Positions 2,722 to 32,150 of a stretch of DNA of 64,000 nt are shown piece after piece. Made by a program: the position numbers and the translations under genes. This DNA is from Planctomycetota bacterium (GTDB lineage Bacteria; Planctomycetota; SZUA-567; H5-PLA8), in the NCBI GenBank assembly GCA_016200135.1, contig JACQFI010000044.1, positions 15,390 through 79,389 on the forward strand, written 5' to 3'. Every line of letters begins with the position of its first letter. Position 1 is the first letter of the stretch. The notes beneath the pieces were generated by a model. It was not told the origin of the DNA and searched no databases. It was given only the letters and a program-made list of their open reading frames with translations.

Positions 2722-2736
2722 AGACTAACGCGTCAT

Positions 2737-2813: not shown

Positions 2814-2823
2814 GAATCCACGC

Positions 2824-3666: not shown

Positions 3667-3727
3667 ATTTTGGATTGAACGGCGGGCTTCGTAAGCCAGA
3701 ATCAAGCAGGCTAGAATTAAGGGAGGA

Positions 3728-4054: not shown

Positions 4055-4191
4055 AGCAGCTCGCGGCATTCTGGCTCGCGGCTCCGGGCATTGATCGAGC
4101 GTTTGGCTTCTGCTGTGAGCCGAGAGCTGCGAGCCAGATGCCCCACATTTCATGCCCTGTAATACCGGGCTCGTTCGTCTAAACTAACGCT

Positions 4192-6333
4192 ATGAAGCCG
4201 CGGTTCCTCAGCCTGCTCGCGCTTGCCGCGGCCCTCGCTGCCGCCGCGGAAGAACCGCCGCCCGCCGAGACCATCCCGCTGGAAGCTTCCGAGGACGGCA
4301 CGCCGCTCCCGCTGCCGGTACTGGACGGCGAGCCTGCGCTCGGGCGCTGGGTGGCGCTGCGCGCGGACCGGACCAAGGGTTCGCCCGAAGCCTACGCGTG
4401 GAAGCAGACCGGGGGGCCGCCGCTGAACCTGAGCGAAGCGGAGGCGTCTTCGCCGCGCGTCTGGCGCCTGCTCGAGAAGCCCGGCGACTACCGCATCGAA
4501 TTGAAGGCCAAGAACGCGAAGGGCTGGAGCCCGGCCGTCCCGCTGGCCTTCAGCGTGAAGGATGGCGAGCCCGCGCTGTCCATCGACCAGGCGTTGACGA
4601 TGACAGGCGCGGGCGAGGGCTACGCGGACGGCATCTTCCTTCCCGGCGAGAGCTGGAAGCAACTCCTGGGCCCGGAGGTCCGGCTCACCTACGACGAGAA
4701 AACGAAAACGACGCTCTTCCGCGCGCTGGTTCCGGGGTTGTATCTCTTCGAGGCCGAACACGCCGGGCGCGTGCCGGAGCGCCGGGCCTTCCGTGTACCG
4801 GCGGGCGCCGATGAACTGATGGGCGACCGGCGGCCCGAAGCGCGCCTGACGCTGCCGCAGGACGGCTTCGTGGGCCAGCGCGTGGAGCTGGACGGCTCGC
4901 TCTCCAACGACCGCGACGCGGAACCCCTGACGGCCAAGTGGATGAGCGTCGATGTCGTGCGCGGCGTGACCATCAAGGCACTGGACGGCCTGAAGGCGGA
5001 GTTCAGCGCGCAGCGCGAGGGCGTCTACCGCGTACGCCTGATCGTGAGCGACGGCAAGCTGGACAGCCGCCCCGTCGAGACTTTCGTGCGCGTGCTCAAG
5101 GCTGCCGATACGGTGGCCGATCCGGCCGGCGAGGACGTTCCGCCCGACACCGATCCGCTGAGCCGCCGCGTCTCCCTGCGCTGCTACGAGAGCAGTCTCG
5201 ACCGGGCCGTGCAGCGTTTCCCGCACGATTGCAACGTGACGCTGCGCGTCCGCCAGGAACTCTGCCCGACCGATCAGTTCGAGAAGGTGCCGCTGGACTT
5301 GGGCGTTGAGTACGCGCCCGTGGGCCTGCTGCTGGACTGGATCGCGCGGCAGTCCGGCGGCGCTTACCGCCGCGAGAGCAAGGCTTCGGTCTGGTTGGTG
5401 AAGCCCTCCGCCTGGGCCGCCGACGAGGAGCTGAAGAACGAGGTCGTCGCTATCGACGCGCTCTACCGCAACAAGGACGCCTCGGACCTGCTCGAGGTTC
5501 TGCGCCGGCCGTTCCGCGGCATCCTGACGGAGCGCGCCGACGCGCAGCTCCTGCTGCAGGCGGACAGCAACAAGGCCATCGCCTTTTTGCCGCTGCGCGC
5601 GTGCCAGCGTTTGAAGGAGATGGTGGCGTTCCTGCGCGCGCCCAAGGGCATCGGGATTCCGCCTACGCAGTGGCTCACCGCCGCCGAGTTCCTCCTGCGG
5701 CGCAAGCTCGCGGAGACCAAGCTCAAGCTCGACTGGCAGGGCCGGCGCATCGATTGGGCGCTGCGCGATCTCTCCGAGATGACCGGCGTGCCGGCGGGCT
5801 TCGATCCGGCCCAGTTCGCGAAGTTCCAGTACCTGAAGCCCGCCCGGAACCTGCTCAGCGACCCCAACCCGCTCGCGCCGCCCGATCCCCTGGACGCCTT
5901 GCCGCGGATCACGTTGAAGCTCGACGACGTGCCCTTCCGAGAAGCCGTGCGGGAGGTCGTCGCGGCCGCCGGGTTTGACGGCTGCCAGCCGCAGAACGGC
6001 GCGGGCCTCTGGTTCTATAAAGGCGGCGAACCGTACCCGTCGGGCGAACTCCTCTGGGATATCGCCTTCGTTCGCGCGTATCCACTGGATCAGGTGCTGG
6101 CGCGCACCCCGCTGCTGAGCGGCGAGGTGATCGCGCACGAGATCCGGCGCAAGGTCTACCCCGATTCCTGGAACGATCCCGCGACCTGCTGCGCGTATCA
6201 CGCGTCCACCGGCAAACTCCTGATCGTGCATGGCGAGGCCGCGCACGTCCGCATCATCAACTTTCTGAACGATCTGCTGGAACGCGGCGAGGACGCGCTG
6301 GGGCCGGTGCAGACGGCTCCGCAGGAGAAGTAA
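4192..6333 (+). CDS. Secreted hypothetical protein with Ig/PKD-like beta-sandwich segments
   Basis: N-terminal signal peptide MKPRFLSLLALAAALAAAAEE. Segments such as YRIELKAKNAKGWSPAVPLAFSV and YRVRLIVSDGKLDSRPVETFVRV resemble PKD/Ig-like strands. The antisense ORF 4150..6246 is Arg/Ala/Leu-rich junk. Confidence 0.7.
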   Translation: MKPRFLSLLALAAALAAAAEEPPPAETIPLEASEDGTPLPLPVLDGEPALGRWVALRADRTKGSPEAYAWKQTGGPPLNLSEAEASSPRVWRLLEKPGDYRIELKAKNAKGWSPAVPLAFSVKDGEPALSIDQALTMTGAGEGYADGIFLPGESWKQLLGPEVRLTYDEKTKTTLFRALVPGLYLFEAEHAGRVPERRAFRVPAGADELMGDRRPEARLTLPQDGFVGQRVELDGSLSNDRDAEPLTAKWMSVDVVRGVTIKALDGLKAEFSAQREGVYRVRLIVSDGKLDSRPVETFVRVLKAADTVADPAGEDVPPDTDPLSRRVSLRCYESSLDRAVQRFPHDCNVTLRVRQELCPTDQFEKVPLDLGVEYAPVGLLLDWIARQSGGAYRRESKASVWLVKPSAWAADEELKNEVVAIDALYRNKDASDLLEVLRRPFRGILTERADAQLLLQADSNKAIAFLPLRACQRLKEMVAFLRAPKGIGIPPTQWLTAAEFLLRRKLAETKLKLDWQGRRIDWALRDLSEMTGVPAGFDPAQFAKFQYLKPARNLLSDPNPLAPPDPLDALPRITLKLDDVPFREAVREVVAAAGFDGCQPQNGAGLWFYKGGEPYPSGELLWDIAFVRAYPLDQVLARTPLLSGEVIAHEIRRKVYPDSWNDPATCCAYHASTGKLLIVHGEAAHVRIINFLNDLLERGEDALGPVQTAPQEK

Positions 6334-6339
6334 GACCGC

Positions 6340-7572
6340 CTACCGTAGCGCGCGGCGCTTCATCCAGTCTTCGTATTCCTTGGATTTGAGGAATTCCGCG
6401 AAGGTCTTCTCCTGTTCCAGATTCAGCGTCGCCTGCGGCATGTGCTTCTCGAACTCGTCCAGCAGCCGCGTCGTTTCCACATAATCTTTTTCCGCGAGCG
6501 CGTAATCCATCAGCATGTAATACGCGTACTCGATGGTGGGGTCGGCTTCGAGGGCCTTGTGCGCGAAGGCCTTCGCCTTCGGCGTATCGTTGAGCTTCTT
6601 GTAGGCCTTGGCGCGGAAATGGTCGAGGAGCCCGTCGCCGCCTACGGCCTTGTCGAGCCGGTCAAGCGCTTCGAAGCCCTCCGGTTCGCGGCCTGCCGCA
6701 AAGAAGTACTTGATGAGCAGCAGGTCGGTGAGGCCCTTGCCCGCGAAGCGCGTGCGGAAGTCCTCGATCGCTTTCAAGTAATCGTCCGTGCCATGCTGGC
6801 GCGCGCAGGCAAAGCGCATCTGCGCCACCTCTGGATCGGATTTCACCGCGTCGGGCAGGCTTTCGTAGATCTTCAGGGCCTCGGTGTAATCCCCCGAGAG
6901 CATCTTCGTCTGCAGGTAGGACACGGCCGAGATGTTCTCGACAAACGCGCGTTCGGACGGCGTGAGCTGGTCCAACACCGCCTTGTCCTTCTCGACAGCC
7001 AGCGGCAGCAGGAAATGCCTAAGCGAGTCGCTCGCCTTGGTGCCGCTGAGGTACGAACAGGCGTCCACGATCTTGAGCGTGCGCGAGGCGTCGGGCGCGA
7101 GGTAGAGTTCGTGGTATTGCAGACCGTCGCGGCTGAGCATGCGCAGCATGGCGCGCCACTGGCCGTCCACTTCGCGCAGGCGCAGCAGCTTGACCGCCGC
7201 GCCGCGGCTGGTCTCCAGCGCCAGCGTCGCCGCCATGCCTGATTCCACGAACTTTTTCTCGATGCCTTCCAGGCTGGAGGGGGGCAGTTTCCAAGGTTCG
7301 GCGGCCGCCTTGAGCATGCCCGCGTAATCCATGTGCGCCTGCATGAAGCGCGCATCGCCGCGGTTGATCGACTTCTCCACCGTTTTGGCGAAGGCCGCCG
7401 CGGCGGCCTCCAGGGTCTGGTCCTTCTCCCACACCACCGGCGGTTCAACCGGCGCAACCGTAACCGGCAGGTCTGGCGTCGGCTCGGTCTTCTTTCCGCC
7501 CGAGCCGCAGCCCGCCGCCGCCAGCAGCACGGCCGCCAAACTCGCTCGAAAAACCAGATTATGTGTGCGCAC
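6340..7572 (-). CDS. TPR-like repeat lipoprotein
   Basis: Signal peptide plus lipobox LLAAAGC|GSGG. The rest is helical-repeat (TPR-like) composition. Confidence 0.7.
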   Translation of the reverse strand: MRTHNLVFRASLAAVLLAAAGCGSGGKKTEPTPDLPVTVAPVEPPVVWEKDQTLEAAAAAFAKTVEKSINRGDARFMQAHMDYAGMLKAAAEPWKLPPSSLEGIEKKFVESGMAATLALETSRGAAVKLLRLREVDGQWRAMLRMLSRDGLQYHELYLAPDASRTLKIVDACSYLSGTKASDSLRHFLLPLAVEKDKAVLDQLTPSERAFVENISAVSYLQTKMLSGDYTEALKIYESLPDAVKSDPEVAQMRFACARQHGTDDYLKAIEDFRTRFAGKGLTDLLLIKYFFAAGREPEGFEALDRLDKAVGGDGLLDHFRAKAYKKLNDTPKAKAFAHKALEADPTIEYAYYMLMDYALAEKDYVETTRLLDEFEKHMPQATLNLEQEKTFAEFLKSKEYEDWMKRRALR

Positions 7573-7623: not shown

Positions 7624-10600
7624 CTAATCCAGATCCTTTAAGGCCGCCTGCAGGCTCGCCACCTTGGCCCGGTACTCGGCCAGCCGGGCTTTCTCGGCGT
7701 CCACTTTATCCGGCGGCGCGTTCTTTACGAACTTATCGTCGCCCAGCTTCTTCTTGCCCTGGTTCACCGCATGCTGCGTGCGCTCGATCTCCTTCGCGAG
7801 CCGCTCGCGCTCCTTGGCGGGATCGATCAGTCCGGCCAGGGCCACGTACAACTCCGCGCCCGCGAACACTTCCGTTCCGGCTGGCTTAGGCTTCTGAACA
7901 TTTAGGCCGATCTCGATCTGCTTCACGTTCGCCATCTGCACCAGGATGTGCTTCTGCGCCAGGAGACGCTTCGCCGCCGCATCGTCCGTGGTCTTGATGA
8001 ACACGCTCAGCGCTTCCTTTGGCTGGATGCCGTTCTTCTGGCGGATGTTACGTACCGCGCGCACGGCTTCGAGCACACTAAGAAATTCATCTTCTAGATC
8101 GGTATTCAACAAGCCAAAGGTTGGATCCGGCCAGCACGAACCTGCGAGCATTTCACCCACGAATGGACGCTCCTTGCCCACGTCGTCGGTCGGCGGGTAA
8201 CCTAAGTTGCGCGAGGTTGGCGTAGGGGCTTTCCTCGCCAGTTCGGCCCACAGCACTTCGCTGATGAACGGGCAGAACGGATGCAGTAGACGTAGGCTCC
8301 GGTCGAGCACGTGCACAAGTACTGCAGTGGCCGCAGTCTTATCCGAAGAACCCGGCTGCAATCGCGACTTGCTCAATTCGATCGTCCAAGCGCAAAATTC
8401 ATCCCAGAAAAAGGTGTATAATTTGTTTGTGGCCCTGCTGAAATCAAAGTTATCCAAGGCTATTGTCACTTGGTTAATTGTTCCTGTTAGCCGCGAGAGA
8501 ATCCAGCGGTCCTCGTCGCGCAGCCCGGCTTCGATGGCCGCGTGGTCTTCCAAGCGCTTGGCCGTATCGGCGTCGATGCTCGTCAGGACAAACCGCGCGG
8601 CGTTCCACACCTTATTGGTGAAGTTGCGGCCCTTCTCGAAGCGCTTGCTGTCGAGCGCGCCCATCTTCGGTTCGGCGAGCGTCGGCTCGTTGGGCACGGG
8701 CTGCTGGAAGTCCTGCTTGCATTTCGCGCACTTCATCACCGGCTCGGTGCGCTTGCGCGGGAGTTCCTGCATCTCGTCGCAGTGCGGGCAGACGATCTGC
8801 ACCGGGAACTTGATGTCCTGGCCCTCGGTGGCCATGTCGAAGATGGTAAAGCGCATCGCGTCGGCGCCGTAGCGCTGGATGATGTCCAGCGGGTCGATGC
8901 CGTTGCCCTTGCTCTTGGACATCACCGCGCCGTCGCCATCCAGCACCGTGCCATGGATCACCACGTCGCGGTAGGGCTCCTTGCCGAGCAGGTGCTCGCC
9001 CATCATCACCATGCGCGCCACCCAGAAGTAGATGATCCCGCGCGAGGTCACCAGGGTGTCGGTGGGGTAGTAGTATTCGAGTTCCTTGGTCTTCTCCGGC
9101 CAGCCGAGCGTGCTGAACGGCCAGAGGGCGCTCGAGAACCACGTGTCGAGCACGTCCGGGTCGCGCACCAGCGTCTTGCCCTGGTACTGCGGCAGCTTCG
9201 AAGGGTCTTCGCTGGCCACGATCGGCTTGGCGTGCTCGCCGATCAGATAACGGTAGCGCTTACCGTTCTCCACGATCTCGAACGGCTCGTCGGGACCGGC
9301 CTCGATCTTTTCGATCGTGCCGGCGTTGTCTTCCAGGCAGTACCACGCGGGAACCTGGTGGCCCCACCAGATCTGGCGCGAGATCGGCCAGTCGCGCACG
9401 TCCTCGAACCAATTGAGGTACACCTTCGTCCAGCGCTCGGGGTGGAACTTCACGCGGCCCGAAGCGGTCGCGGCCACGGCCAGCTTGCTGAGCGGCTTCA
9501 TGTTCACGAACCACTGCGAGGTGAGGAACGGTTCGATCATCGTGTGGCAGCGGTAACAGTGGCCCACCTGCTGCTTGTGGTCCTTGATCTCGCCCGTCAG
9601 GCCCAGCGCCTTGAGCGCCTCCATCACCGCCTTGCGCGCCTTGTAACGGTCCATCCCGCGGAACTCGGGCGGGCATTCTTCGTTCAGCCGGCCGTCCTCG
9701 GTGAGGATATTCAAGATCTGCAGCTTGTGGCGCAGTCCGATCTGGTAGTCCACCGGATCGTGCGCGGGCGTCACCTTTAGACAGCCGGTGCCGAACTCAC
9801 GATCGAGCGCCGCGTCGCCGATGATGGGGATTTCGCGGCCCGTCAGCGGCAACTTTACCTTCTGGCCGATGAGATGCTTGTAGCGCTCGTCGTCCGGGTG
9901 CACGGCCACGGCGGTGTCGCCGAGCATGGTCTCGGGACGCGTCGTCGCCACGGTCAGATACGGCAGTGCCGAGTTCTGAGTCCTGCTTGCTGAGTCGGCA
10001 AACGGATAATGCAGCTCATAGAGCCGCCCGTTCACTTCCTCGTGCTCCACTTCGTCGTCGCTCAGAGTGGTCCGGCAGCGCGGGCACCAGTTCACCAGGT
10101 ACTTGCCGCGATAGAGCAGGCCGTCTTTAAACAGTTTCACGAAGGCCTCGCGCACGGCGCTGTTCAGGCCCTCGTCGAGCGTGAAGCGCTTGCGCTGCCA
10201 GTCGCAGCTCGCGCCGAGTTTGCGGAGTTGCTTCAGGATCGTGTCGCCGGACTGGTTGGTGAAGTCCCAGATGCGCTTGATCAGTTCCTCGCGGCCGATC
10301 TCGTAGCGGCTCTTGTTCTCGTTCTTTGCGATCTGTTTCTCCACCACGTTCTGCGTGGCGATGCCGGCGTGATCGGTGCCGGGCAGCCAGAGCGTCTCGC
10401 GGCCCTGCATGCGGCGGAAGCGGACCAGGAGGTCCTGCAGCGAGTTGTTCAGCGCGTGGCCGATGTGCAGGACGCCCGTCACGTTCGGCGGCGGGATCAT
10501 GATGGTGTAGGGCTTGCGGCCCGCTTTGGGCTCGGAATGAAAGACGCCGGACTTCTCCCAGCGTTCATACGTGGCGTCTTCGAACTGCTTCGGGTCGTAC

Positions 10601-10659
10601 TGTGTGGGCATCTCGCCCGGCTGCGGTGCGGTGGACATGGCTTCCCCAGACGAATTCAA
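7624..10659 (-). CDS. valS: Valine--tRNA ligase
   Basis: HIGH motif region PPNVTGVLHIGHALN and KMSKS region VMSKSKGNGIDP, class-I editing and anticodon-binding architecture, ~1,000 aa, C-terminal coiled coil. A 4-Cys insertion (CPHCDEMQ...CAKCKQ) follows KMSKS. The start may be at 10659 or at ATG 10638. Confidence 0.95.
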   Translation of the reverse strand: MNSSGEAMSTAPQPGEMPTQYDPKQFEDATYERWEKSGVFHSEPKAGRKPYTIMIPPPNVTGVLHIGHALNNSLQDLLVRFRRMQGRETLWLPGTDHAGIATQNVVEKQIAKNENKSRYEIGREELIKRIWDFTNQSGDTILKQLRKLGASCDWQRKRFTLDEGLNSAVREAFVKLFKDGLLYRGKYLVNWCPRCRTTLSDDEVEHEEVNGRLYELHYPFADSASRTQNSALPYLTVATTRPETMLGDTAVAVHPDDERYKHLIGQKVKLPLTGREIPIIGDAALDREFGTGCLKVTPAHDPVDYQIGLRHKLQILNILTEDGRLNEECPPEFRGMDRYKARKAVMEALKALGLTGEIKDHKQQVGHCYRCHTMIEPFLTSQWFVNMKPLSKLAVAATASGRVKFHPERWTKVYLNWFEDVRDWPISRQIWWGHQVPAWYCLEDNAGTIEKIEAGPDEPFEIVENGKRYRYLIGEHAKPIVASEDPSKLPQYQGKTLVRDPDVLDTWFSSALWPFSTLGWPEKTKELEYYYPTDTLVTSRGIIYFWVARMVMMGEHLLGKEPYRDVVIHGTVLDGDGAVMSKSKGNGIDPLDIIQRYGADAMRFTIFDMATEGQDIKFPVQIVCPHCDEMQELPRKRTEPVMKCAKCKQDFQQPVPNEPTLAEPKMGALDSKRFEKGRNFTNKVWNAARFVLTSIDADTAKRLEDHAAIEAGLRDEDRWILSRLTGTINQVTIALDNFDFSRATNKLYTFFWDEFCAWTIELSKSRLQPGSSDKTAATAVLVHVLDRSLRLLHPFCPFISEVLWAELARKAPTPTSRNLGYPPTDDVGKERPFVGEMLAGSCWPDPTFGLLNTDLEDEFLSVLEAVRAVRNIRQKNGIQPKEALSVFIKTTDDAAAKRLLAQKHILVQMANVKQIEIGLNVQKPKPAGTEVFAGAELYVALAGLIDPAKERERLAKEIERTQHAVNQGKKKLGDDKFVKNAPPDKVDAEKARLAEYRAKVASLQAALKDLD

Positions 10660-10916
10660 ACGGCGGCGCGTGGCGGCTCGAACGTTTCGAAGCGCTCTTG
10701 TAACGGTTAGGGACGTTTCCGGCTAGTAAACGGTTGGGATTAACACACGACGAAGCAGCCGCGCGTGGAAGCCATGCGCGGCCGTGAGAACTCCCATTCC
10801 GCGGCGAAGCGCGGAGAGAACATAGGGTTGCGGCGGTGCGGCATCATGGGTGGGACTATACCGCATGAACTTGGAGGAAGCAAATCGCATCAAAGTGGAT
10901 TGAAGGCAGCGGACAT

Positions 10917-11153
10917 TCAGGGCTTGGAGGTACCGTGTTCCTTTTGGCTCTTCTTCCAGCGTTCCAGGACCTCGTTGGGGTCGGGGATGGGCACCTGGTC
11001 GGCAGGGATTTTTACGACCTTGCCGTCACGCCAAGTGGTTAGAGGCATTCCCAAACGGCGATGTTCAGCTACGACACCGGCATACGCTTCGACGGCCGCC
11101 ATTTCATAAAGAACGTGGTCGGGAATATTCGGCAATTCAAGCTTTTTGATCAT
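10917..11153 (-). CDS. Small protein translationally coupled to the zeta-toxin-like gene (putative antitoxin/partner)
   Basis: 78-aa ORF whose ATG overlaps the upstream gene's TGA (ATGA at 11150-11153). It has lower GC than its surroundings. I recognise no family. Confidence 0.5.
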   Translation of the reverse strand: MIKKLELPNIPDHVLYEMAAVEAYAGVVAEHRRLGMPLTTWRDGKVVKIPADQVPIPDPNEVLERWKKSQKEHGTSKP

Positions 11154-11725
11154 GCCACACCTCCCGACTTCTTGATCTGCGAGTATATCGCGGCATCAAT
11201 GACAATCAACTGTGAGCATTCCCAGTAAGCAATGAGTCTGCTGCGGTCCGTATTGTCAAAAAGCATCCAGTGATCCATTAGCTGACCGTAGACTTGGAGA
11301 AGATTCTGGATGCTCTTTGAATGTCTCCTGCGCACGTCTTCCGGCGGAATGTGATGGCCGCCTTTGGCAACCCTGTCAGCTACCCGTTCAATAGCGGTCG
11401 ATGGGTTGGGCACCCAGAGGAAAAATAGGCGCAAGATGTAGCCTCTTGTTTTCAGATCACGAAGAAAGGGTAAGTAGCTCCGCCCTGCTAGCGTGGTTTC
11501 AAATGCAAAATCGAGGCCCTTTTCCGCCAACTCGCGCAGCCTTCGCAACATGACTTTTCCGGCTTGCAAGGACACGCCTTCTGAATTGAAGGGCGAGAGA
11601 CCCTTGGCAATCAGGTCCGCATTTACGAACTCCGCGCAGCCGGCGTATTGAGGCAAGAGCGTGTTCGCAAAGGTGGTCTTACCCGCGCCGTTGCACCCTG
11701 CGATAATGTAGACAGTCGGCACCAA
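11150..11725 (-). CDS. Zeta-toxin/AAA_33-like P-loop kinase
   Basis: N-terminal Walker A IIAGCNGAGKTT, ~190 aa. Its length and motif layout match the zeta toxin / UDP-GlcNAc kinase family. The gene is about 53% GC against ~67% around it. Confidence 0.75.
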   Translation of the reverse strand: MVPTVYIIAGCNGAGKTTFANTLLPQYAGCAEFVNADLIAKGLSPFNSEGVSLQAGKVMLRRLRELAEKGLDFAFETTLAGRSYLPFLRDLKTRGYILRLFFLWVPNPSTAIERVADRVAKGGHHIPPEDVRRRHSKSIQNLLQVYGQLMDHWMLFDNTDRSRLIAYWECSQLIVIDAAIYSQIKKSGGVA

Positions 11726-11746
11726 TAGATTCCTCAGCCGATCAAT

Positions 11747-14059
11747 TTAAGACGCGTGGGGAACGGGCGTGGGACTCGCGCCGCCGCCCCCGCCGTTCTT
11801 ATCGTCCCCGTCCTTCGGCCGCTTGCGGTCCTTCAAATCTTCCATGCAACTCGGCGGCGGCTCGATGCCGAGCATCTTCGCAATCTCGGCCATGGCCTTG
11901 TCGGAGGCTCGGGCGACCTCTTCGCGCGAGGCATCCTCGGGAATCTTGAACGGTTCGCCGACGAGAATCGTGACCTTGCTGGGCTTTGGGAACTTGGCCG
12001 ACCGTGGAAAGGCTTCGGTATTGCCCCTGATCGCGCAGGGGACCACCGTGGCGCCGGCCCGCTGCGCCAGGAACATCGCGCCCATCTTCGGCTTGCTCAT
12101 TTGGCCTGTGCGCGTGACCGTGCCTTCGGGGAACATCCCGATGCAGATGCCCTGCGCGAGCGCTTTCGAACCTTCTTTCAAGGCACGGATCTGGCTCGCC
12201 TCGTCCACCGGGATGCAGATCATGAAGCGGAAGAACGGATGCGCCCACGAGTAGTAGTAGCTCGAATGCATGATGTACTGCACCCGGCGTTTCATGCAGA
12301 TGCCAAGCCAGACCGGGTCGAGGAAACTGCCGTGGTTTCCAACGAGCATCACCGGGCCCGATTCAGGCACCTTGTCGCGGCCTTCGATGTGGATGCGGAA
12401 GTAAACCTTCGCGATGCACCAGGCAATGAAGCGCGCGGTGTAAAACGTAAAACGCTCGAGGGGCCCGCCCATGTTGAGCTTCTTGGGATTCGCGTAGATG
12501 CCGACATCGAGCATCCAAGCGAGCGGCAGGACCGCGAAGAAACCGAGCATCATGGCCGGCGGCATGAAATGGGCCGTGTTCCAGCGCACGTCGAAATGAG
12601 AATAGAAGCCGAATACGAACAGCGGGCCCATTAAGGCGGACGTAAAGATGAAGCCCTTGATCGAGAAGACGCGCCCGCGCATGGTCTCGTCGGTGATGGC
12701 GAGCATGTCGGCGTCGATCCGCCCGAGCAGCAGGCCGCCGCCGAGTCCCAGCAGGAACATAAAGGGAAAGAGACCCTTCGCGAGGGCCATGTTCTCGGCG
12801 TCGAGCTTCTCGATCCGGGCCCGATCGAAGGACTTCGTATCGCCGGCGATGCGTTCGGCCAGCGCCCGAATGCCCGCCCGTTCGGCCTCGGGGACTTCCC
12901 TTAAGACCTCTTCCGTCTGGTAGCGCTCCGAGAACTCCAGCAGTGCGCGCTCGGGATTGGCCGCGCCCTGCGCGCCAAAATGGGTGTGCATCGCCAGGCC
13001 GATGAGCACGTAGGCGATCGGGTAGGTAAAAAGCGGGCTTATGCGCGCGCTGAATTTGCCGATGGTGAGCGCGCCCAAGAAGAGCCCCAACCCGGCGCAG
13101 CCCAAGCCCACGCTGAAGAAGAAGATCCGGCCGCTCTCCGCCAGATGCAGCACCAGCGACGAATGCCAGGTGATTAACGTATAGAACGCGACGGCCGTGA
13201 TCCAGAATGACGCCTCGAAGACGATCAGCGCCGCGACGCCTTTCTTGCTGAGGCAGTACTTGAGGCCTGCCCAGTTGTTCCGGAAGAACTGGAGGACCTT
13301 GCCGCCTTCGGCAGGAGGAGCCGCAGTGCTGCCGCCGCGACTGGTATCCACGGCCGCTGCGGCGGACGCCCCGTTTGCCGCTTTCCGTTTCATCCCGGGC
13401 ACCGCCACCGCGTCCGGCAGCGCGCGCAGCATGAGCGTGGCGATGATGTAGAATCCGCTGGCCATGGGGATAATCGAGTAGGGCTTGTACTTGTCGGCCA
13501 GCGTACCGCCGATGTAGGTGCCGAGCAGGATGCTCACGAGCCCCGTCACCGCCAACAGGCTGGCCGCGATGCCCGTCTCTTCTTCCGGCACGACGTCCGG
13601 GATCGAACTGGCCCGCGCCGGTCCGAACGGGACCGTGAAAAGGCTGAGCAGGAAGATCACCGGCAACAGGATGAACCAATGCGTGCGGAAGTAGTCCGAC
13701 TTCAGATCGCCCAGCAGCAGGAACATCATGGCCCAGACGGTGGGCGCTTTGAGCAGGCAGACACCCCAAAGCAGACGCCTGCGGTCCATGCCGTCTACGA
13801 CCGAGCCGATCATGGGATAGAAAAAGAACTGCGGCACGACGCCGGCCAGCGTGATCAGCGCGACCTGGGAACTGGGATCCGGAAAGGCCAGCATCACCGC
13901 CGCAATGGTGGCCATCTGGTAAAAACGGTCTCCCAGCGTACCCACCAGCGATCCGAAAAACAGGCGCGTGAACCCGCCGTACGAGAAGACCCAACGCTGC
14001 TCGCCCTCGGAAGGGGCACTCGCTCCAGCATTTTCTGAGGTTGGATGCGTTTCAGCCAT
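11747..14059 (-). CDS. MFS transporter (LplT-like) fused to C-terminal 1-acyl-glycerol-3-phosphate acyltransferase (PlsC/LPLAT) domain
   Basis: The N-terminal ~500 aa contain multiple TM helices with MFS motifs (GSLVGTLGDRF). The C-terminal domain has the acyltransferase HX4D motif VGNHGSFLDP and FPEGTVTRTG. This is an Aas/LplT-type lysophospholipid re-acylation architecture. The ORF extends to 14137; I chose MAETHPT at 14059. Confidence 0.8.
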   Translation of the reverse strand: MAETHPTSENAGASAPSEGEQRWVFSYGGFTRLFFGSLVGTLGDRFYQMATIAAVMLAFPDPSSQVALITLAGVVPQFFFYPMIGSVVDGMDRRRLLWGVCLLKAPTVWAMMFLLLGDLKSDYFRTHWFILLPVIFLLSLFTVPFGPARASSIPDVVPEEETGIAASLLAVTGLVSILLGTYIGGTLADKYKPYSIIPMASGFYIIATLMLRALPDAVAVPGMKRKAANGASAAAAVDTSRGGSTAAPPAEGGKVLQFFRNNWAGLKYCLSKKGVAALIVFEASFWITAVAFYTLITWHSSLVLHLAESGRIFFFSVGLGCAGLGLFLGALTIGKFSARISPLFTYPIAYVLIGLAMHTHFGAQGAANPERALLEFSERYQTEEVLREVPEAERAGIRALAERIAGDTKSFDRARIEKLDAENMALAKGLFPFMFLLGLGGGLLLGRIDADMLAITDETMRGRVFSIKGFIFTSALMGPLFVFGFYSHFDVRWNTAHFMPPAMMLGFFAVLPLAWMLDVGIYANPKKLNMGGPLERFTFYTARFIAWCIAKVYFRIHIEGRDKVPESGPVMLVGNHGSFLDPVWLGICMKRRVQYIMHSSYYYSWAHPFFRFMICIPVDEASQIRALKEGSKALAQGICIGMFPEGTVTRTGQMSKPKMGAMFLAQRAGATVVPCAIRGNTEAFPRSAKFPKPSKVTILVGEPFKIPEDASREEVARASDKAMAEIAKMLGIEPPPSCMEDLKDRKRPKDGDDKNGGGGGASPTPVPHAS

Positions 14060-14261
14060 AGGCGAGGCACTTATCCTAAAATTCCGCTCGGGCGCAAGCG
14101 CCAGGGAATTCCGAACGACTTTCTTGACCAACTGCACGATGTGTAGTATTCTATAAGTTGAAGGAAGATATGTTGTTATATCGCGCTATATTTTCGCGTT
14201 ATCTTTCGGCAAGGACATAGGTTGCAGGAGTTTCAACTGGGTAACGCAGCAGGGAGAACAC

Positions 14262-15347
14262 GTGGGATTAGAATCGCTTACCGAGTCTCAACTCGTTGCC
14301 TACGGCTATTTCGAGAAGCTGCCCGATGGCCGTTGGGCCGTGGACCCCAAGCATCCTGAATGCGGATGTGTTGAAGGTCCGGCGGCCATCCAAGATCCCG
14401 CGATCTCGAAGGCCAAAGCCATTGGCAACTGCCAGCTCTGTTCAAACTGGAACCCGCGCGTCGGCTGCGTGCTGGGAAGCAATCTCGCACTCAGCGAAAG
14501 CCGTTGCAACCAATCGCCCATGCAGTTTGTGACGGAACAGGCCCATGCCTGGGTGGAGATCGGCCGCTTCGACCGGGCGATCTCGCGGCTGGAGACCTAC
14601 CTGAAGGCTCACAGCGACAGCCCCGACGCCTACTTGGCATTGGCCAAGGTGTACGACCATCCCGGATACCACGGCAAGGACAAGCGTCGCGCGATTGTGC
14701 TCTATGGGCGCTACATGGAGCTAAGAGGAAAGAACGCCCAATATCATCCTGAGTTCAAAAGAGCGGCGGTGCGCGTTCAGGTGCTGAGCCGGCAGGCGGT
14801 TCCGTCTTCCGCGGCAGCCGAAGAGGCGCCGCCTTTGGCCACGTTCAATTGCTTCCACCGCAGCGGGGGCCTCACCCACTTCTATGCCTGCGCGCTTACG
14901 TATGACGTGCTGGTGATGGCGTACGTGGGCGACGCCGACCCCGACTCGGGCATATCCTCGCTAGAGGTGGGCGAAACGTTCGAGAAAGCGACCTTTCTTT
15001 GGCGCAAGCTGATGGGCGAGAAAGACCTTAAACAGGAGATCGCGCTGACGGCTAAGGAGATCGAACACGTCAGTGGGCTTAATCCCGTGGCCATGGCCAA
15101 AGATCACCGTTCCAATCTCTGGATTCACCTCAACTCTGTCAAGAAGACCGCTGTCGAGGACGATGCCAAACGCGGTATCCGCAGGGTCACTATCTGGAGC
15201 GGCACGTCCGCCTATGAACTTCTCTTTCCCATGGCTCAAGCGAACCGAGCCGATCACGTCACGGCGCTGGTGCGCTTCCTTTCAAGCGAGGCCTCTCTAT
15301 CGTCCGTCACGCATCCCAAGACCAAATCTTCTTCGGTTGGCGCCTAG
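14262..15347 (+). CDS. Stand-alone paralog of the kinase C-terminal domain (unknown-function Cys-motif domain)
   Basis: GTG start with an AGGGAG RBS. Its 361 aa align end to end with residues ~470-813 of the downstream kinase. Shared blocks include YFxKxxDGRWxxD, CxLCxNWNxRxGC, GRFDxAIxxLE, YxxLAxxYxxPxYxGKDxxRAIxLYGRxxEL, FxCFxRSxG and DPDxGxS. Confidence 0.7.
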   Translation: MGLESLTESQLVAYGYFEKLPDGRWAVDPKHPECGCVEGPAAIQDPAISKAKAIGNCQLCSNWNPRVGCVLGSNLALSESRCNQSPMQFVTEQAHAWVEIGRFDRAISRLETYLKAHSDSPDAYLALAKVYDHPGYHGKDKRRAIVLYGRYMELRGKNAQYHPEFKRAAVRVQVLSRQAVPSSAAAEEAPPLATFNCFHRSGGLTHFYACALTYDVLVMAYVGDADPDSGISSLEVGETFEKATFLWRKLMGEKDLKQEIALTAKEIEHVSGLNPVAMAKDHRSNLWIHLNSVKKTAVEDDAKRGIRRVTIWSGTSAYELLFPMAQANRADHVTALVRFLSSEASLSSVTHPKTKSSSVGA

Positions 15348-15541
15348 GCACCAAATACCAACGCGAGACACTCAAGCCTCGTTAAGCCTGCCGTAACGAT
15401 GTGTTTTCGTCCTGCCTGACTTACCATCAGGCGGAAGCCTTTCTACTTGCACGAATGCTCTTGCTCTATCCCTGATTGCACGTAAAAAGATTCTACGCAA
15501 GGTGCAGTAATCGCTTTTAAGATGGATGATGTATCATTTCT

Positions 15542-17983
15542 TTGCGGCTCTTGGGTGCGGGCATGGCTGGCGTATATCAAATCGGCGAATTCGTTCTAGA
15601 ATCGAAGCTCGGCGAGGGCGGGATGGGTGTTGTATTTCGAGCGCGTCAGGTCGCGCTGGACCGCTGGGTCGCCTTGAAACTGCTCGCCCGGCCCGCCACG
15701 GGCGGTTCGACGTTCTACGAACGCTTTCATCGCGAAGCGCGCGCCGCAGCGCAGCTCGTGCATCCCAACATCATTCAGATCTACACGATCGGCGAACACA
15801 AGGGCGCGCCGTTTTACGCCATGGAGTACGTCGAGGGCGAGGACCTCGCGCATCTGCTTCGCGATACCGGCAAGTTGACGCTCGATGAGGCCGTCGAGAT
15901 CATTCGCGCCGTTGCGAAGGCGCTGGCGCTCGCGGGGGACTCCGGGATCGTCCATCGCGACATCAAGCCCGCGAATATCATGGTCTCGATGGGCGGTCTG
16001 GTAAAGGTGATGGACTTCGGCCTCGCCAAAGCGACGGCCTCGGACCATACCTTGACGCAAGACGGCCAGATCATGGGCACGCCCACGTACCTCTCGCCCG
16101 AGCAAGGCATGAGTAAAGAAGTGGACACACGCTCCGACCTGTATTCGCTCGGTTGTGTTTTCTACGAGTGCCTGTCTGGCAACCCTCCGTTCCAAGGCGA
16201 CAACCTGCCCTCGCTGATCTTCAAGCATCTCTACGAACCGGTGAAGTCGCTGCGCGAGGTCGATTCCGCGATCCCGGAGGCCCTCGAAGGCATCTGCAAC
16301 AAGCTCCTGGCGAAGAAATCGGAGGATCGCTACCAGTCCGGACTGGAACTGCTCGAGGCCCTGGCCGCCGTGAATACCAATCAGGCCCTGGCGGAGATCT
16401 CGCTCTCCAAGCGCGTGCGCAAGGTCAAAGCGGAGCGGAAAGCGAAGATGCCTGCGCAGGCCGAAGAAGACGCCACGGCCGAGGCCAGCGCCGCCGCGGA
16501 GGCGACCACGCGGGTTCTCGACACGCCTGCCACGGAAGCGCCGGCCGTTCCTCCTCCCGATGCCATGAACCTGACGCCCAACCCGGAAGCGGCCGCGGAG
16601 CCCGCGCTGCCGAGGCCCGCTGCGGCCGATTCCAAGCGCCACATGGTCTTCGACAAAGATCTTACCCTGACCGGGGACGATTACAGCCCCGCGGATGGGT
16701 CTTCCGGCGATGCGCAGAAGCCGCCTGCGAACGAAGCCGCTCTTCGTTTGGAGGATTATCGTGTTCCGCCGCCGAACTTAAAGGTGCCGCCTCCACCCCG
16801 TCCGGGCGGCAGCAGAGCAAATCTTGCGCAAGTGCCCGCACCGCCCCCTCCGCCCCAACCCACGGAGAGTTCCTCGCGCGCAGAAGCTCAGACCGAAGAA
16901 GAAATACAGCCGAAACCTCCCTCCGGCCTGTTCATGCGCCCCACCTCGGGGATGCTCATTCGCAAGAGCGGCGTCTCGAGCTACTTCCACAAGCAGGCGG
17001 ACGGGCGCTGGGGCTACGACATTTCGCAAGGGCATTGTAAGTTCGCGGAAGGCATGGCGGTCGAGGCGCTGCCCGGCGCCGATATCAACATCGGCAAGCA
17101 CGCCGATTGTCTCCTGTGCACCAACTGGAACCGCCGCAGCGGCTGCGCCATCGCGACCATTCAATACATCGAGTCCACCAGCCGGGCCAAGGGCGTGGAC
17201 CTGCTCGAAGAGGTGGCCGCGGTCTGGTGCGTGACCGGGCGTTTCGACAAGGCCATCGGCGTCCTTGAAGAACAGATTCGCAATAACCCCGGGAATCCCG
17301 ACGGCTACCGGGCCCTCGCGCGGATCTACGAACGCCCCGACTACACCGGCAAGGACCGCAACCGCGCCATCATCCTCTATGGCCGCTTCGTCGAGTTGGC
17401 CATGAAAAAGGGCGGGTACAGCAACCTGGAGATCGAGCGCGCGCAGGGCCGCGTAGCGCAGCTTCAAGTCACAGGCAACCAGCCCAAGGAAGCCCACAAA
17501 CCCGGAGCCTTCTCCGGCACCATGATTCATACGTTCCCATGCTTCTACCGTTCCAACGGGACCGTCTTCTTCGGACTGGGCGGCGTCAACCGCGATACCG
17601 TGGTGGTGGCGCGCGCAGGCGAGGTGGATCCCGATACCGGCGTGAGCGCCTCCGAGATGGGCAACCCGTTCATGCGCGCGACCACTCTGATCCGGCGCAT
17701 CAAGAGCGAGAAGGCCAAGGCCGAAGAACGCGAAGCCGTAAAGAAAGAGATCGACCGCATCTCCAAGACTTCGGTGGATCTGCTGCTCCATGAGACCGGC
17801 AAAGTCCACCTCATTCCGCTTAAGGATATCCAGGCGTTCGACTACTCGCGGGACGACGCCACCGAACAGCGCACCGTCAAACTGCGCGCGGGCGGCCATC
17901 TGCACGAACTGATCTTTTCTTCCGCCGCCGATCATGACGCCGACAAATGCGCGCTCATGATCCGCAGGCTCACGGGCAAGTGA
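15542..17983 (+). CDS. Hanks-type Ser/Thr protein kinase with Pro-rich linker and C-terminal unknown-function domain
   Basis: Kinase subdomains GEGGMGVV...ALK, HRDIKPANIM, DFGLA and GTPTYLSPE. The middle is Pro/Ala-rich disorder, and the C-terminal ~340 aa are homologous to the upstream ORF. The start may be TTG 15542 or ATG 15563. Confidence 0.9.
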   Translation: MRLLGAGMAGVYQIGEFVLESKLGEGGMGVVFRARQVALDRWVALKLLARPATGGSTFYERFHREARAAAQLVHPNIIQIYTIGEHKGAPFYAMEYVEGEDLAHLLRDTGKLTLDEAVEIIRAVAKALALAGDSGIVHRDIKPANIMVSMGGLVKVMDFGLAKATASDHTLTQDGQIMGTPTYLSPEQGMSKEVDTRSDLYSLGCVFYECLSGNPPFQGDNLPSLIFKHLYEPVKSLREVDSAIPEALEGICNKLLAKKSEDRYQSGLELLEALAAVNTNQALAEISLSKRVRKVKAERKAKMPAQAEEDATAEASAAAEATTRVLDTPATEAPAVPPPDAMNLTPNPEAAAEPALPRPAAADSKRHMVFDKDLTLTGDDYSPADGSSGDAQKPPANEAALRLEDYRVPPPNLKVPPPPRPGGSRANLAQVPAPPPPPQPTESSSRAEAQTEEEIQPKPPSGLFMRPTSGMLIRKSGVSSYFHKQADGRWGYDISQGHCKFAEGMAVEALPGADINIGKHADCLLCTNWNRRSGCAIATIQYIESTSRAKGVDLLEEVAAVWCVTGRFDKAIGVLEEQIRNNPGNPDGYRALARIYERPDYTGKDRNRAIILYGRFVELAMKKGGYSNLEIERAQGRVAQLQVTGNQPKEAHKPGAFSGTMIHTFPCFYRSNGTVFFGLGGVNRDTVVVARAGEVDPDTGVSASEMGNPFMRATTLIRRIKSEKAKAEEREAVKKEIDRISKTSVDLLLHETGKVHLIPLKDIQAFDYSRDDATEQRTVKLRAGGHLHELIFSSAADHDADKCALMIRRLTGK

Positions 17984-31707: not shown

Positions 31708-31740
31708 AAGATTGAATAGCTAAGGTTGAAGTTGCCGAAT

Positions 31741-32124: not shown

Positions 32125-32150
32125 GGATCATGCAACCTGGAGCCTCGACC

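What the first reader, a model, noticed from the sequence alone, without database searches (positions are those of the whole stretch)
10660..11746. Low-GC island carrying a zeta-toxin-like P-loop kinase with a translationally coupled downstream small partner (putative TA/defence module)
The two genes are ~53-55% GC in a ~67% GC context. They are wedged between the valS promoter region and a lipid-metabolism gene. The 191-aa protein has an N-terminal Walker A (GCNGAGKTT) and the length and layout of zeta toxin / AAA_33 UNAG-kinase toxins. Its stop overlaps the start of a 78-aa ORF (ATGA), which implies coupled translation. The order of large gene then small gene is the reverse of classical epsilon/zeta, where the antitoxin comes first. 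So this is either a reversed-order TA pair or a kinase plus an uncharacterised small effector or immunity factor.
Basis: partly seen in the sequence, partly recalled or inferred. Interest (0 to 1): 0.6.

Follow-up and report, generated by a model that had tools for sequence, protein, structure and literature searches.

The report
Zeta-like kinase with downstream small partner
This is a real two-gene cassette acquired from another organism: a compact zeta-toxin-type kinase followed by an overlapping small gene. The same pair recurs in hundreds of bacteria and on plasmids, and is most likely an uncharacterised toxin-antitoxin module in which the antitoxin comes second.

Summary
On the minus strand, a 190/191-aa P-loop kinase (11150-11722/11725; Walker A GCNGAGKTT) ends in an ATGA overlap with a 78-aa ORF (10917-11153). 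Both genes are about 53-54% GC.

- **Kinase identity:** it passes Pfam Zeta_toxin (49 bits, cut-off 22.3). Its AlphaFold model best matches AvrRxo1, zeta and PezT.
- **Conserved pairing:** the small ORF is not a local oddity. In 78 of 80 related loci from more than 10 phyla, a homologous 45-90-aa protein lies directly downstream, usually with the same 4-nt overlap, or is fused to the kinase C-terminus. A leave-out HMM scores the window ORF at E=4e-11 with no off-target hits.
- **Partner family:** it has about 4,000 cluster representatives, no Pfam model, no structural relative and no name.
- **Deletion in a relative:** a related Planctomycetota genome has, at the same site, an intact small gene beside a kinase gene reduced to its first 13 codons.
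- **On plasmids:** the pair also occurs on plasmids, including Synechocystis pSYSG sll8004/ssl8003.

Best reading: a toxin-first type II TA or defence cassette with a new antitoxin family. Toxicity, neutralisation and the kinase substrate are all untested.

The parts
11150..11722 (-). Compact zeta-toxin-family P-loop kinase CDS. 190 aa from GTG at 11722; the ORF listing gives 191 aa from TTG at 11725.
   Evidence: ORF. Pfam PF06414 Zeta_toxin E=6e-13, 49.1 bits (cut-off 22.3) and AAA_33 31.6 bits. At least 8000 homologues of about 190 aa. AF2 pLDDT 91. Foldseek top hits are AvrRxo1-ORF1, zeta and PezT. It retains every family-invariant residue.
11672..11698 (-). Walker A / P-loop GCNGAGKTT (residues 10-18 in 191-aa numbering; Lys16).
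   Evidence: Read from the sequence. G10, N12, G13, G15, K16, T17 and T18 are invariant in 30 homologues.
11606..11623 (-). Invariant NADLIA motif. Asp37 lies 21 residues after the Walker lysine and is the presumed catalytic base, equivalent to zeta Asp67.
   Evidence: Invariant columns N35, A36, D37, L38, I39 and A40. The role of Asp67/Asp56 in zeta toxins comes from PMC5923241. The equivalence is an inference from spacing.
10917..11153 (-). 78-aa small partner CDS, the putative antitoxin. Predicted as a helix (12-34), a beta-hairpin (38-49) and a lineage-specific C-terminal helix (59-73).
   Evidence: ORF. Leave-out HMM E=3.7e-11. No Pfam, NCBIfam, PADLOC or PHROG match. AF2 pLDDT 87. No structural relative. 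4002 cluster representatives in 1.84 billion proteins.
11150..11153 (-). ATGA stop/start overlap between the kinase and its partner (translational coupling).
   Evidence: Sequence. The same 4-nt overlap occurs in 40 of 64 related pairs.
11160..11165 (-). Shine-Dalgarno GGGAGG for the small gene, inside the kinase 3' end, 6 nt before the ATG.
   Evidence: Read.
11730..11735 (-). Shine-Dalgarno GAGGAA for the kinase, 7 nt before GTG 11722. It lies in the 21-24-nt gap after the acyltransferase stop (11747-11749).
   Evidence: Read. There is no room for an upstream antitoxin gene.
11182..11209 (-). Sigma-70-like site TTGATT-16-TATACT inside the kinase 3' end. It could be an internal promoter for the small gene. 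Weak evidence.
   Evidence: 1 site found against 0.5 expected in shuffles, which is not significant.
10660..10916 (-). Spacer between the cassette and valS. Only 10660-10816 is homologous to the valS upstream region of the relative. In the relative, about 1 kb with two extra genes occupies the position of 10817-10916.
   Evidence: blastn window 10816-10431 = L001 3223-3600, 77% identity. L001 gene list.

Best explanation
The locus is a horizontally acquired, toxin-first, type II toxin-antitoxin-like cassette. It belongs to a large, uncharacterised clade.

**Shown**
- Gene 1 encodes a compact (190-aa) zeta-toxin-fold ATP-dependent phosphotransferase with an intact P-loop and all family-invariant residues.
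- Gene 2 is translationally coupled to gene 1 (ATGA overlap, its own Shine-Dalgarno).
- Gene 2 encodes a small helix-plus-beta-hairpin protein that accompanies this kinase clade almost without exception. In some lineages it is fused to the kinase C-terminus.

**Inferred**
- The small protein binds the kinase and holds it inactive, probably by laying its conserved Ala-rich helix over the ATP or substrate cleft, as epsilon does to zeta and AvrRxo2 does to AvrRxo1.
- When the partner is lost, degraded or displaced (plasmid or island loss, stress or phage infection), the free kinase phosphorylates an essential nucleotide-type metabolite. UDP-GlcNAc and NAD are the precedents in this fold; an RNA end is also possible. 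Growth then stops.
- In the window the cassette has no upstream region of its own, so it is probably read through from the acyltransferase gene. A possible weak internal promoter could also serve the small gene.
For: 1. **Kinase identity.** Pfam Zeta_toxin scores above its gathering cut-off. The fold is closest to AvrRxo1-ORF1 (TM 0.75-0.77), zeta and PezT. All invariant residues are kept.
2. **Conserved partnership.** Of 80 related loci from GTDB species genomes, 78 carry a homologue of the small protein directly downstream. It is a separate gene in 71 loci and fused in-frame in 7.
3. **HMM specificity.** Among 11,406 six-frame ORFs, every HMM hit lay at that position.
4. **Independent gene calls.** These show the same 50-52-aa gene downstream.
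5. **Co-inheritance.** Pairwise identities of kinase and partner correlate (r=0.62; Mantel 0/2000). The partner evolves faster, with median identity 28% against 49%.
6. **Asymmetry of decay.**
   - The relative L001 has the kinase reduced to 'MPTVYIIAVRNGT' joined to its last ~20 nt. The small gene there is intact, at 77% aa identity, pN 0.148 and pS 0.76.
   - Three further loci have a split kinase with an intact partner (L044, L053, L063).
   - Only one locus may have an intact kinase without a partner (L005, 125 nt from a contig end).
7. **Mobile, patchy, foreign.**
   - GC and GC3 are far below the flanks.
   - The nearest homologues come from unrelated phyla.
   - One identical kinase has three different left flanks.
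   - Neighbours include integrases, transposases and Tn3.
8. **Plasmids and defence islands.** The pair occurs on plasmids and in TA/defence islands. Synechocystis pSYSG sll8004/ssl8003 lies between type I R-M genes, a PIN pair and DarT/DarG-like genes.
9. **Precedent.** AvrRxo2 is encoded downstream of AvrRxo1 and neutralises it (PMC5087710).
10. **Not a substrate.** The partner has no conserved Ser/Thr/Tyr column, so it is unlikely to be the kinase's substrate.
Against: - No toxicity, binding or neutralisation has been measured for any member that I could find.
- The asymmetry of decay is weak statistically. The kinase gene is about 3 times longer than the partner gene, and the split kinases come from MAGs, where frameshifts may be assembly errors.
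- The partner has no recognisable DNA-binding domain, so the usual antitoxin autoregulation is not evident.
- Both proteins are basic (median pI 9.7 and 10.2). This is unlike the common acidic-antitoxin/basic-toxin pairing.
- C-terminal fusions fit a cis-inhibitor but equally fit an obligate subunit.
- PADLOC has no model for either protein.
- The substrate is unknown. The sequence profile does not reach zeta or PezT in the PDB.
Confidence: 0.6

Rival explanations
1. The pair is a dedicated anti-phage (abortive-infection) system rather than an addiction module. The small protein would act as a phage-sensing inhibitor, and the kinase as the effector that shuts down the infected cell. The single-chain kinase-partner fusions would then act as self-contained sensors, like fused toxin-antitoxin defence proteins. 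This overlaps mechanistically with the best explanation but differs in biological role and trigger.
For: - Some members sit inside or beside restriction-modification and other defence or TA genes. In pSYSG the neighbours are hsdS, a PIN pair, DUF4433 and a macro-domain gene. L076 has an HsdS-like gene, L082 a methyltransferase, and L022 and L017 helicase-like genes upstream.
- Natural C-terminal fusions exist.
- N-terminal wHTH fusions also exist.
Against: - No PADLOC model matches either protein.
- The window copy, and several others, sit next to housekeeping genes rather than in a defence island: valS and the acyltransferase here, MTHFR in L097.
- I did not quantify defence-island enrichment.
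- No experimental test is known.
Confidence: 0.2
2. The pair is a non-toxic two-subunit enzyme. The small protein would be an obligate activator, specificity subunit or chaperone of a kinase that modifies a metabolite, antibiotic or nucleic acid for the cell's benefit. Resistance-type phosphotransferases and RNA-repair kinases share this fold.
For: - Strict co-occurrence, translational coupling and gene fusions are what an obligate heteromer would show.
- The fold also resembles C. thermocellum polynucleotide kinase (TM 0.74 on the target).
- Both proteins are basic.
- The partner has no antitoxin-type DNA-binding domain.
Against: - An intact small gene, conserved at the protein level, persists beside a deleted kinase in L001. 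It also persists beside split kinases in three other loci. A cofactor without its enzyme has no obvious use.
- There are no associated ligase, phosphatase or Hen1 genes as in RNA-repair operons.
- Distribution is patchy and mobile, and includes plasmids.
Confidence: 0.15
3. The roles are inverted (type VII-like). The small protein would be the toxin, and the kinase an enzymatic antitoxin that inactivates it by phosphorylation.
For: Enzymatic antitoxins that modify their toxin are known from established TA literature (for example kinase TakA acting on TglT; from my own knowledge, not checked here). The enzyme-first gene order would fit.
Against: - The small gene survives intact where the kinase is deleted or split (L001, L044, L053, L063). 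That would be lethal if it were a toxin.
- The small protein has no conserved Ser/Thr/Tyr acceptor; the highest S/T/Y fraction in any column is 0.48.
- It has no enzymatic or membrane-active features. It is a 50-aa helix plus hairpin.
Confidence: 0.03

Closest known systems
AvrRxo1-ORF1 / AvrRxo2 (Arc1) of Xanthomonas oryzae pv. oryzicola: a zeta-like NAD 3'-kinase with a downstream neutralising partner
   Same: - It is the best structural match of the kinase model: 4z8q/4z8t, E=2.6e-9, TM 0.75-0.77, 20% identity.
- The gene order is the same: kinase first, then the small neutralising partner in a bicistronic operon (PMC5087710).
   Different: - AvrRxo1 is a 421-aa type III effector with a long N-terminal region. 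The window protein is a bare 190-aa kinase core.
- The substrate here is unknown.
Epsilon/zeta and PezAT (Streptococcus): UDP-GlcNAc 3'-kinase toxins
   Same: - Same Pfam family, PF06414.
- Same phosphotransferase fold: 1gvn, 3q8x, 2p5t, E about 1e-8.
- P-loop followed by an invariant Asp at the spacing of zeta Asp67.
- A small proteinaceous partner encoded in the same operon.
   Different: - Epsilon and PezA are encoded upstream and are three-helix bundles (PezA also has an HTH domain). Here nothing lies upstream and the partner is downstream, with a different fold and no sequence or structure match.
- Zeta and PezT are about 250-290 aa; this kinase is 190 aa.
- A profile of this clade does not reach zeta or PezT sequences in the PDB.
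- I did not examine the UNAG-binding motif here.
Synechocystis sp. PCC 6803 pSYSG sll8004 / ssl8003
   Same: A true member of the same clade. The kinase is 49.7% identical over residues 5-159. The overlapping 59-aa downstream gene matches the partner HMM at E=8e-15.
   Different: - It is uncharacterised. Kopfmann et al. 2016 list these genes only as 'related to TA modules' that did not meet their criteria (PMC4963859).
- It sits in a plasmid defence/TA island, whereas the window copy lies between housekeeping genes.
'Orphan' PezT/zeta toxins and antitoxin-first zeta-like pairs on plasmids (E. coli IncP-like, pTi-C58, Acinetobacter, Lactobacillus, Zymomonas)
   Same: These are distant homologues of the kinase: 27-34% identity with near full-length coverage. 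They too are paired with a small overlapping unannotated gene.
   Different: - In those plasmids the small gene is upstream, and the partner HMM does not match it.
- The 2023 PezAT survey looked for partners of orphan zeta toxins only among upstream genes (PMC10532202). It would therefore have missed the downstream partner described here.

Membership tests
Pfam PF06414 Zeta_toxin (P-loop phosphotransferase family) | Whole-protein HMM score above the curated gathering threshold | tested here: met
   49.1 bits against a cut-off of 22.3, E=6.2e-13, covering residues 3-163. All listed homologues carry PF06414.
Pfam PF06414 Zeta_toxin (P-loop phosphotransferase family) | Walker A P-loop, plus a downstream catalytic Asp and lid arginines | tested here: met
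   GCNGAGKTT (K16), the NADLIA motif with D37, E76, R114, R118 and R133/R134 are all invariant in 30 homologues and present in the window protein. Assigning D37 as the equivalent of zeta Asp67 is an inference from spacing.
Pfam PF06414 Zeta_toxin (P-loop phosphotransferase family) | Zeta-type phosphotransferase fold | tested here: met
   AF2 model pLDDT 91. The top 10 Foldseek PDB hits are AvrRxo1-ORF1, zeta and PezT at probability 1.00.
Pfam PF06414 Zeta_toxin (P-loop phosphotransferase family) | Kinase activity on UDP-GlcNAc, UDP-MurNAc or NAD, and toxicity | not testable with these tools
   This needs enzymology and expression tests. AvrRxo1 shows that the fold does not fix the substrate.
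Epsilon/zeta - PezAT toxin-antitoxin systems | Antitoxin (epsilon or PezA) encoded immediately upstream of the toxin | tested here: not met
   Only 21-24 nt separate the acyltransferase stop from the kinase start. Upstream ORFs in 80 related loci are heterogeneous.
Epsilon/zeta - PezAT toxin-antitoxin systems | Antitoxin with the epsilon three-helix-bundle fold, or sequence similarity to epsilon or PezA | tested here: not met
AvrRxo1 / AvrRxo2 (Arc1) module | Kinase first, small neutralising partner downstream in one operon | tested here: met
   ATGA overlap. AvrRxo2 lies downstream of AvrRxo1 (PMC5087710).
AvrRxo1 / AvrRxo2 (Arc1) module | Partner homologous to AvrRxo2, and kinase carrying the type III effector N-terminal region | tested here: not met
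   No structural match of the partner to the AvrRxo2 chains of 4z8q-4z8v. The kinase is 190 aa and is only the core domain. Kinase identity to AvrRxo1 is 20%.
Type II toxin-antitoxin module (generic) | Two small co-oriented, overlapping or adjacent genes whose pairing is conserved across unrelated genomes | tested here: met
   78 of 80 loci have the partner. 40 of 64 pairs have the 4-nt overlap. Mantel r=0.62, 0/2000 permutations.
Type II toxin-antitoxin module (generic) | Mobile and patchy distribution; presence on plasmids or islands; foreign composition | tested here: met
   More than 10 phyla at 44-58% identity. Found on plasmids. Identical kinase with variable flanks. GC 0.53 against 0.63.
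Type II toxin-antitoxin module (generic) | The antitoxin can persist without the toxin, but not the reverse | tested here: inconclusive
   Four loci have a deleted or split kinase with an intact partner (L001, L044, L053, L063). At most one locus has an intact kinase without a partner (L005, at a contig end). Numbers are small, target sizes differ 3-fold, and the data come from MAGs.
Type II toxin-antitoxin module (generic) | Toxin arrests growth; cognate antitoxin binds and neutralises it; antitoxin or complex autoregulates the operon | not testable with these tools
   No experimental report was found. No DNA-binding domain was detected in the partner. A wHTH domain is fused to some kinases instead.
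The clade defined here: compact zeta-like kinase plus downstream helix-hairpin partner | Small protein matching the partner profile (A..A[LMF][KR].A[VA]..[VA][IV]..H...G.P...W..GK.V), encoded at or overlapping the kinase stop | tested here: met
   Leave-out HMM E=3.7e-11, 41.9 bits, for window 10917-11153. There were no off-target hits in 11,406 ORFs. Conservation pattern.

The most novel reading that the evidence does not exclude
The helix-hairpin small protein defines a very large, unnamed class of partners for compact zeta-fold kinases. If so, many zeta toxins now called 'orphan' are really toxin-first modules. In the most novel version, the partner is a phage- or stress-sensing inhibitor, acting in trans or, in the natural fusions, in cis. 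The strongly basic kinase would then phosphorylate a substrate not yet known for this fold, for example an RNA or tRNA end or another nucleotide, rather than UDP-GlcNAc or NAD.
Probability: 0.2. Interest if true: 0.7.

Novelty: new variant of a known kind. Interest (0 to 1): 0.45.

Why it matters
Zeta toxins are among the few TA toxins that act on small-molecule metabolism: cell-wall precursors and NAD. Surveys report many 'orphan' zeta toxins with no known antitoxin, but the survey read here looked only upstream.

This analysis shows that one abundant compact clade has a conserved partner on the other side. The kinase has at least 8,000 clusters at 90% identity. The partner has about 4,000 clusters at 50% identity. 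The pair occurs in at least ten phyla and on plasmids of Synechocystis, Legionella and Crocosphaera.

That yields a concrete hypothesis testable in tractable hosts (sll8004/ssl8003 of Synechocystis 6803, or the Legionella plasmid pair). It also yields a new candidate Pfam family for the partner and a new enzyme whose substrate is unknown.

For this particular genome the finding is modest: one small mobile cassette lodged between valS and a lipid-remodelling gene.

Tried and rejected
- **Sequence search of the PDB.** The kinase alone and the kinase profile gave only P-loop-level hits. The fold search was needed to place it.
- **Family libraries.** NCBIfam, PADLOC and PHROGs gave no meaningful match for either protein.
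- **Partner against Pfam.** Scanning all 41 partner sequences gave only scattered single hits at E>0.004, including one Phd/YefM hit at 0.03. I treat these as noise.
- **Conserved upstream antitoxin.** Upstream ORFs in the 80 loci are unrelated to each other: housekeeping genes, R-M genes and spurious ORFs.
- **Insertion signatures.** I searched for flanking direct or inverted repeats and for tRNA-type insertion signatures around 10600-11900. Only short matches at chance level turned up.
- **Promoters and terminators.** One weak promoter-like site lies inside the kinase. There is no terminator after the small gene. Neither exceeds shuffled expectation.
- **Distant plasmid systems.** I asked whether the upstream small ORFs of distant plasmid zeta-like kinases belong to the partner family. 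The HMM says no (E>0.4), although a similar G-x-P-hairpin motif is visible by eye.
- **Phage origin.** Only 4 of 50,697 phage records hold even a distant homologue.
- **Literature.** Searches for COG4185, sll8004/ssl8003, zeta toxin with reversed order, and zeta toxin in phage defence found no characterisation of this pair.
Rejected. There is no equivalog match, distribution is patchy and mobile, and the composition is foreign.
Full report
**1. What is at the coordinates**

Both genes are on the minus strand.
- The larger ORF runs 11150..11725 (TTG, 191 aa). The likelier start is GTG at 11722. It is preceded by GAGGAA at 11735-11730, gives the 190-aa protein MPTVY... that NCBI annotates (P0001), and is the start preserved in a relative.
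- The Walker A motif GCNGAGKTT is encoded at 11672-11698.
- The 78-aa ORF runs 10917..11153. Its ATG overlaps the kinase TGA as ATGA (11150-11153), with GGGAGG 6 nt upstream.
- The neighbours are valS (7624..10659) and a 796-aa MFS_1/Acyltransferase fusion (11747..14137), on the same strand.
- Only 21-24 nt separate the acyltransferase stop from the kinase start, so no upstream gene can exist.

*Composition*
- GC is 0.531 for the kinase and 0.544 for the small ORF. The window mean is 0.632 and the flanking genes are 0.62.
- GC3 is 0.62 for the pair against 0.82-0.84 for the flanks.
- The block lies in the lowest 1.2% of equal-length sliding windows.

**2. The kinase**
- Pfam places it in PF06414 Zeta_toxin (49.1 bits, cut-off 22.3) and in AAA_33 (31.6 bits, cut-off 27).
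- NCBIfam, PADLOC and PHROGs give nothing beyond P-loop noise.
- It belongs to a very large family of proteins of about 190 aa. At least 8,000 clusters were scored, and the best hits outside its own genome are 50-57% identical. They come from Omnitrophota, Elusimicrobia, Desulfobacterota, Bacteroidota and others, and are named 'zeta toxin family protein' or 'predicted ABC-type ATPase'.
- An alignment of 30 members shows 43 invariant positions, all kept in the window protein. These include the P-loop, an NADLIA motif, FETT, R114, R118, a GGH triplet and RR at 133-134.
- Asp37 lies 21 residues after the Walker lysine. I infer it is the counterpart of the catalytic Asp67 of zeta and Asp56 of ng_zeta1 (PMC5923241).
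- Sequence profiles do not reach any solved structure.
- The AlphaFold model (pLDDT 91) matches, in order, AvrRxo1-ORF1 (E=2.6e-9, TM 0.75-0.77), zeta (1gvn, 3q8x) and PezT (2p5t). Next comes the polynucleotide kinase of C. thermocellum.
- It is therefore a stripped-down zeta-fold phosphotransferase of unknown substrate.

**3. The small ORF is a conserved partner**

Alone, the small ORF finds only itself and one 76%-identical protein in a word-indexed search, and has no family match. The neighbourhoods of kinase homologues settle the matter.
- I fetched 80 loci from species-representative genomes using the kinase alignment.
- In most of them a 46-91-aa ORF starts at the kinase stop. These ORFs share a clear pattern: A..A[LMF][KR].A[VA]..[VA][IV]..H...G.P...W..GK.V.
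- I built an HMM without the window protein and without its close relative, then searched it against all 11,406 six-frame ORFs of the window and the loci.
  - It scores the window ORF at E=3.7e-11.
  - It hits nothing except ORFs directly downstream of a kinase, or the C-terminal part of longer kinases.
- In total 78 of 80 loci have the partner: 71 as a separate gene and 7 fused in-frame, mostly in Verrucomicrobiota.
- The two exceptions are a locus whose contig ends 125 nt after the kinase, and one where an IS256-like transposase has truncated the kinase.
- Forty of 64 pairs have the same 4-nt overlap as the window.
- Kinase and partner identities co-vary (r=0.62; Mantel 0/2000). The partner diverges faster, with median identity 28% against 49%.
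- Independent gene calls in metagenomes show the same unannotated 50-52-aa gene.
- A filter-free profile search of 1.84 billion representatives finds 4,002 partner clusters at E<=1e-3. None of those listed has a Pfam domain or a name.

**4. The site in a relative**

The only close homologue of the small protein lies in another Planctomycetota MAG (GCA_026184295.1), at the same place between the acyltransferase and valS.
- No kinase is annotated there. However, 45 nt upstream of the small gene reads MPTVYIIAVRNGT, against MPTVYIIAGCNGA in the window. This is joined to a stretch resembling the last ~20 nt of the kinase gene.
- An internal deletion of about 520 bp has therefore removed the kinase and spared the partner.
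- The partner remains under protein-level constraint: 77% aa identity, pN 0.148 and pS 0.76. Its dN of 0.165 is comparable to the flanking genes, where dN is 0.12-0.18 and dN/dS 0.20-0.24.
- The cassette was therefore already present in the common ancestor. It is not a recent private insertion.
- The site itself is plastic. The relative has three extra small genes there that the window lacks.
- Three more loci have a split kinase next to an intact partner (L044, L053, L063).

**5. Wider context**
- Members of the same clade sit on plasmids:
  - Synechocystis 6803 pSYSG, where sll8004/ssl8003 lie among hsdS, a PIN pair and DUF4433 and macro-domain genes;
  - Crocosphaera plasmid B, next to an integrase;
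  - a Legionella pneumophila conjugative plasmid, next to Tn3.
- In each case the small gene matches the partner HMM.
- Kopfmann et al. listed sll8004 and ssl8003 only as TA-related genes that failed their criteria (PMC4963859).
- One identical kinase protein occurs with three different left flanks.
- The family is nearly absent from phage genomes.
- More distant zeta-like kinases on E. coli, Agrobacterium, Acinetobacter, Lactobacillus and Zymomonas plasmids (27-34% identity) have a small gene upstream instead. The partner HMM does not match those genes.
- Some kinases of the clade carry an N-terminal winged-helix domain and still have the downstream partner.

**6. Interpretation**

*Shown:* this is a mobile, compositionally foreign two-gene unit. 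A catalytically intact zeta-fold kinase is strictly and co-evolutionarily tied to a translationally coupled small protein.

*Inferred:* the small protein is a proteinaceous inhibitor (antitoxin) of a growth-arresting kinase. The arguments are:
- the family precedent of zeta, PezT and AvrRxo1;
- the AvrRxo1/AvrRxo2 precedent for a downstream neutraliser;
- the mobile, plasmid and island distribution;
- the faster evolution of the partner;
- the survival of partner genes beside dead kinases;
- the absence of a conserved phospho-acceptor in the partner.

*Weaknesses:*
- There are no experiments.
- The number of decayed loci is small, and the mutational target sizes differ 3-fold.
- No DNA-binding domain is present in the partner.
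- Both proteins are basic.
- Fusions would equally fit an obligate subunit.

I put 0.6 on the TA-type inhibitor model. A dedicated anti-phage role gets 0.2 (it overlaps mechanistically), a benign two-subunit enzyme 0.15, and inverted roles 0.03.

**7. Comparison and novelty**
- The kinase is a member of PF06414 by the family's own threshold.
- The system is not an epsilon/zeta or PezAT system. The antitoxin position and fold were tested and not met.
- It is not an AvrRxo1/AvrRxo2 homologue either. The partner is unrelated and there is no effector domain. It does work most like the latter in layout.
- The 2023 PezAT survey searched for partners of orphan zeta toxins only among upstream genes (PMC10532202), so it would not have seen this partner.
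- I found no paper that names or tests the partner family.
- I class it as a new variant of a known kind: a zeta-type module with a new antitoxin candidate family in reversed order.
- For the genome in hand it is an ordinary small mobile cassette. The more general value lies in the partner family and the unknown substrate.

Noticed in passing
L001 1922-1976 (relative GCA_026184295.1), corresponding to window 11722-11150: A deletion scar of the kinase gene. The first 13 codons (MPTVYIIAVRNGT) are joined to the last ~20 nt, directly upstream of an intact small-partner gene.
   Followed up: yes
L001 1541-1900, 2282-2692 and 2762-3139; window 10817-10916: The acyltransferase|valS intergenic site is a hotspot. 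The relative carries two paralogous Zn-ribbon genes (weak PF13453) flanking the small gene, plus a 125-aa ORF. None of these has any trace in the window (tblastn E>0.2).
   Followed up: partly
L026, L032, L041, L052, L070 (Verrucomicrobiota/Opitutus); also L075 and L081: Natural single-chain fusions of the kinase with the small partner at the C-terminus (245-284 aa), joined by a linker of about 30 residues.
   Followed up: partly
P0004, P0022, P0066; L013 3692-4570: Some kinases of the clade carry an N-terminal winged-helix domain (weak HTH_24 / HTH_5 hits) and still have the downstream partner (L013 4567-4755). This may be a built-in autoregulator.
   Followed up: partly
L083 (Synechocystis 6803 pSYSG, record 1378-6842): sll8004/ssl8003 lie in one co-oriented string: DUF433 - PIN - hsdS - a 96-aa nucleotidyltransferase (overlapping the kinase start) - kinase - partner - DUF4433 - macro domain. 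This is a dense TA/defence island.
   Followed up: partly
L086 1250-1501 (E. coli IncP-like plasmid) and L090 410-646 (Zymomonas plasmid): The upstream small ORFs of distant zeta-like kinases contain '...G[VF]P[IV]YY.E....PEG..IKEYPDG...'. By eye this resembles the G.P..VW.DGK.V hairpin of the downstream partners, but the HMM does not match. It could be very remote homology with permuted gene order.
   Followed up: no
window 11182-11209 (minus strand): A sigma-70-like TTGATT-16-TATACT site lies inside the 3' end of the kinase gene, upstream of the small gene. It is not above chance in shuffles.
   Followed up: no
64 kinase/partner pairs (L003-L082 and window): Both proteins are basic (median pI 9.7 and 10.2; window 9.3 and 8.0). 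This is unusual for a toxin/antitoxin pair and may hint at a nucleic-acid substrate.
   Followed up: no
window 31100-32350, 52200-53000, 13640-15640: Other low-GC stretches in the window (minima 0.511, 0.538 and 0.549 for 809-nt windows). The first covers a 132-aa ORF (31726-32124) and the start of a 278-aa ORF (32130-32966) that looks like a PPK2-type polyphosphate kinase (my reading of the sequence, not checked with a tool).
   Followed up: no
L060 4483-5760: An IS256-like transposase gene follows a C-terminally truncated kinase, and no partner gene remains. This cassette has been destroyed by an IS insertion.
   Followed up: partly
L097 4120-5728 and L098: As in the window, this module begins right at the end of a housekeeping gene (a 4-nt overlap with an MTHFR gene). 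This suggests a habit of lodging at operon ends and borrowing upstream transcription.
   Followed up: no
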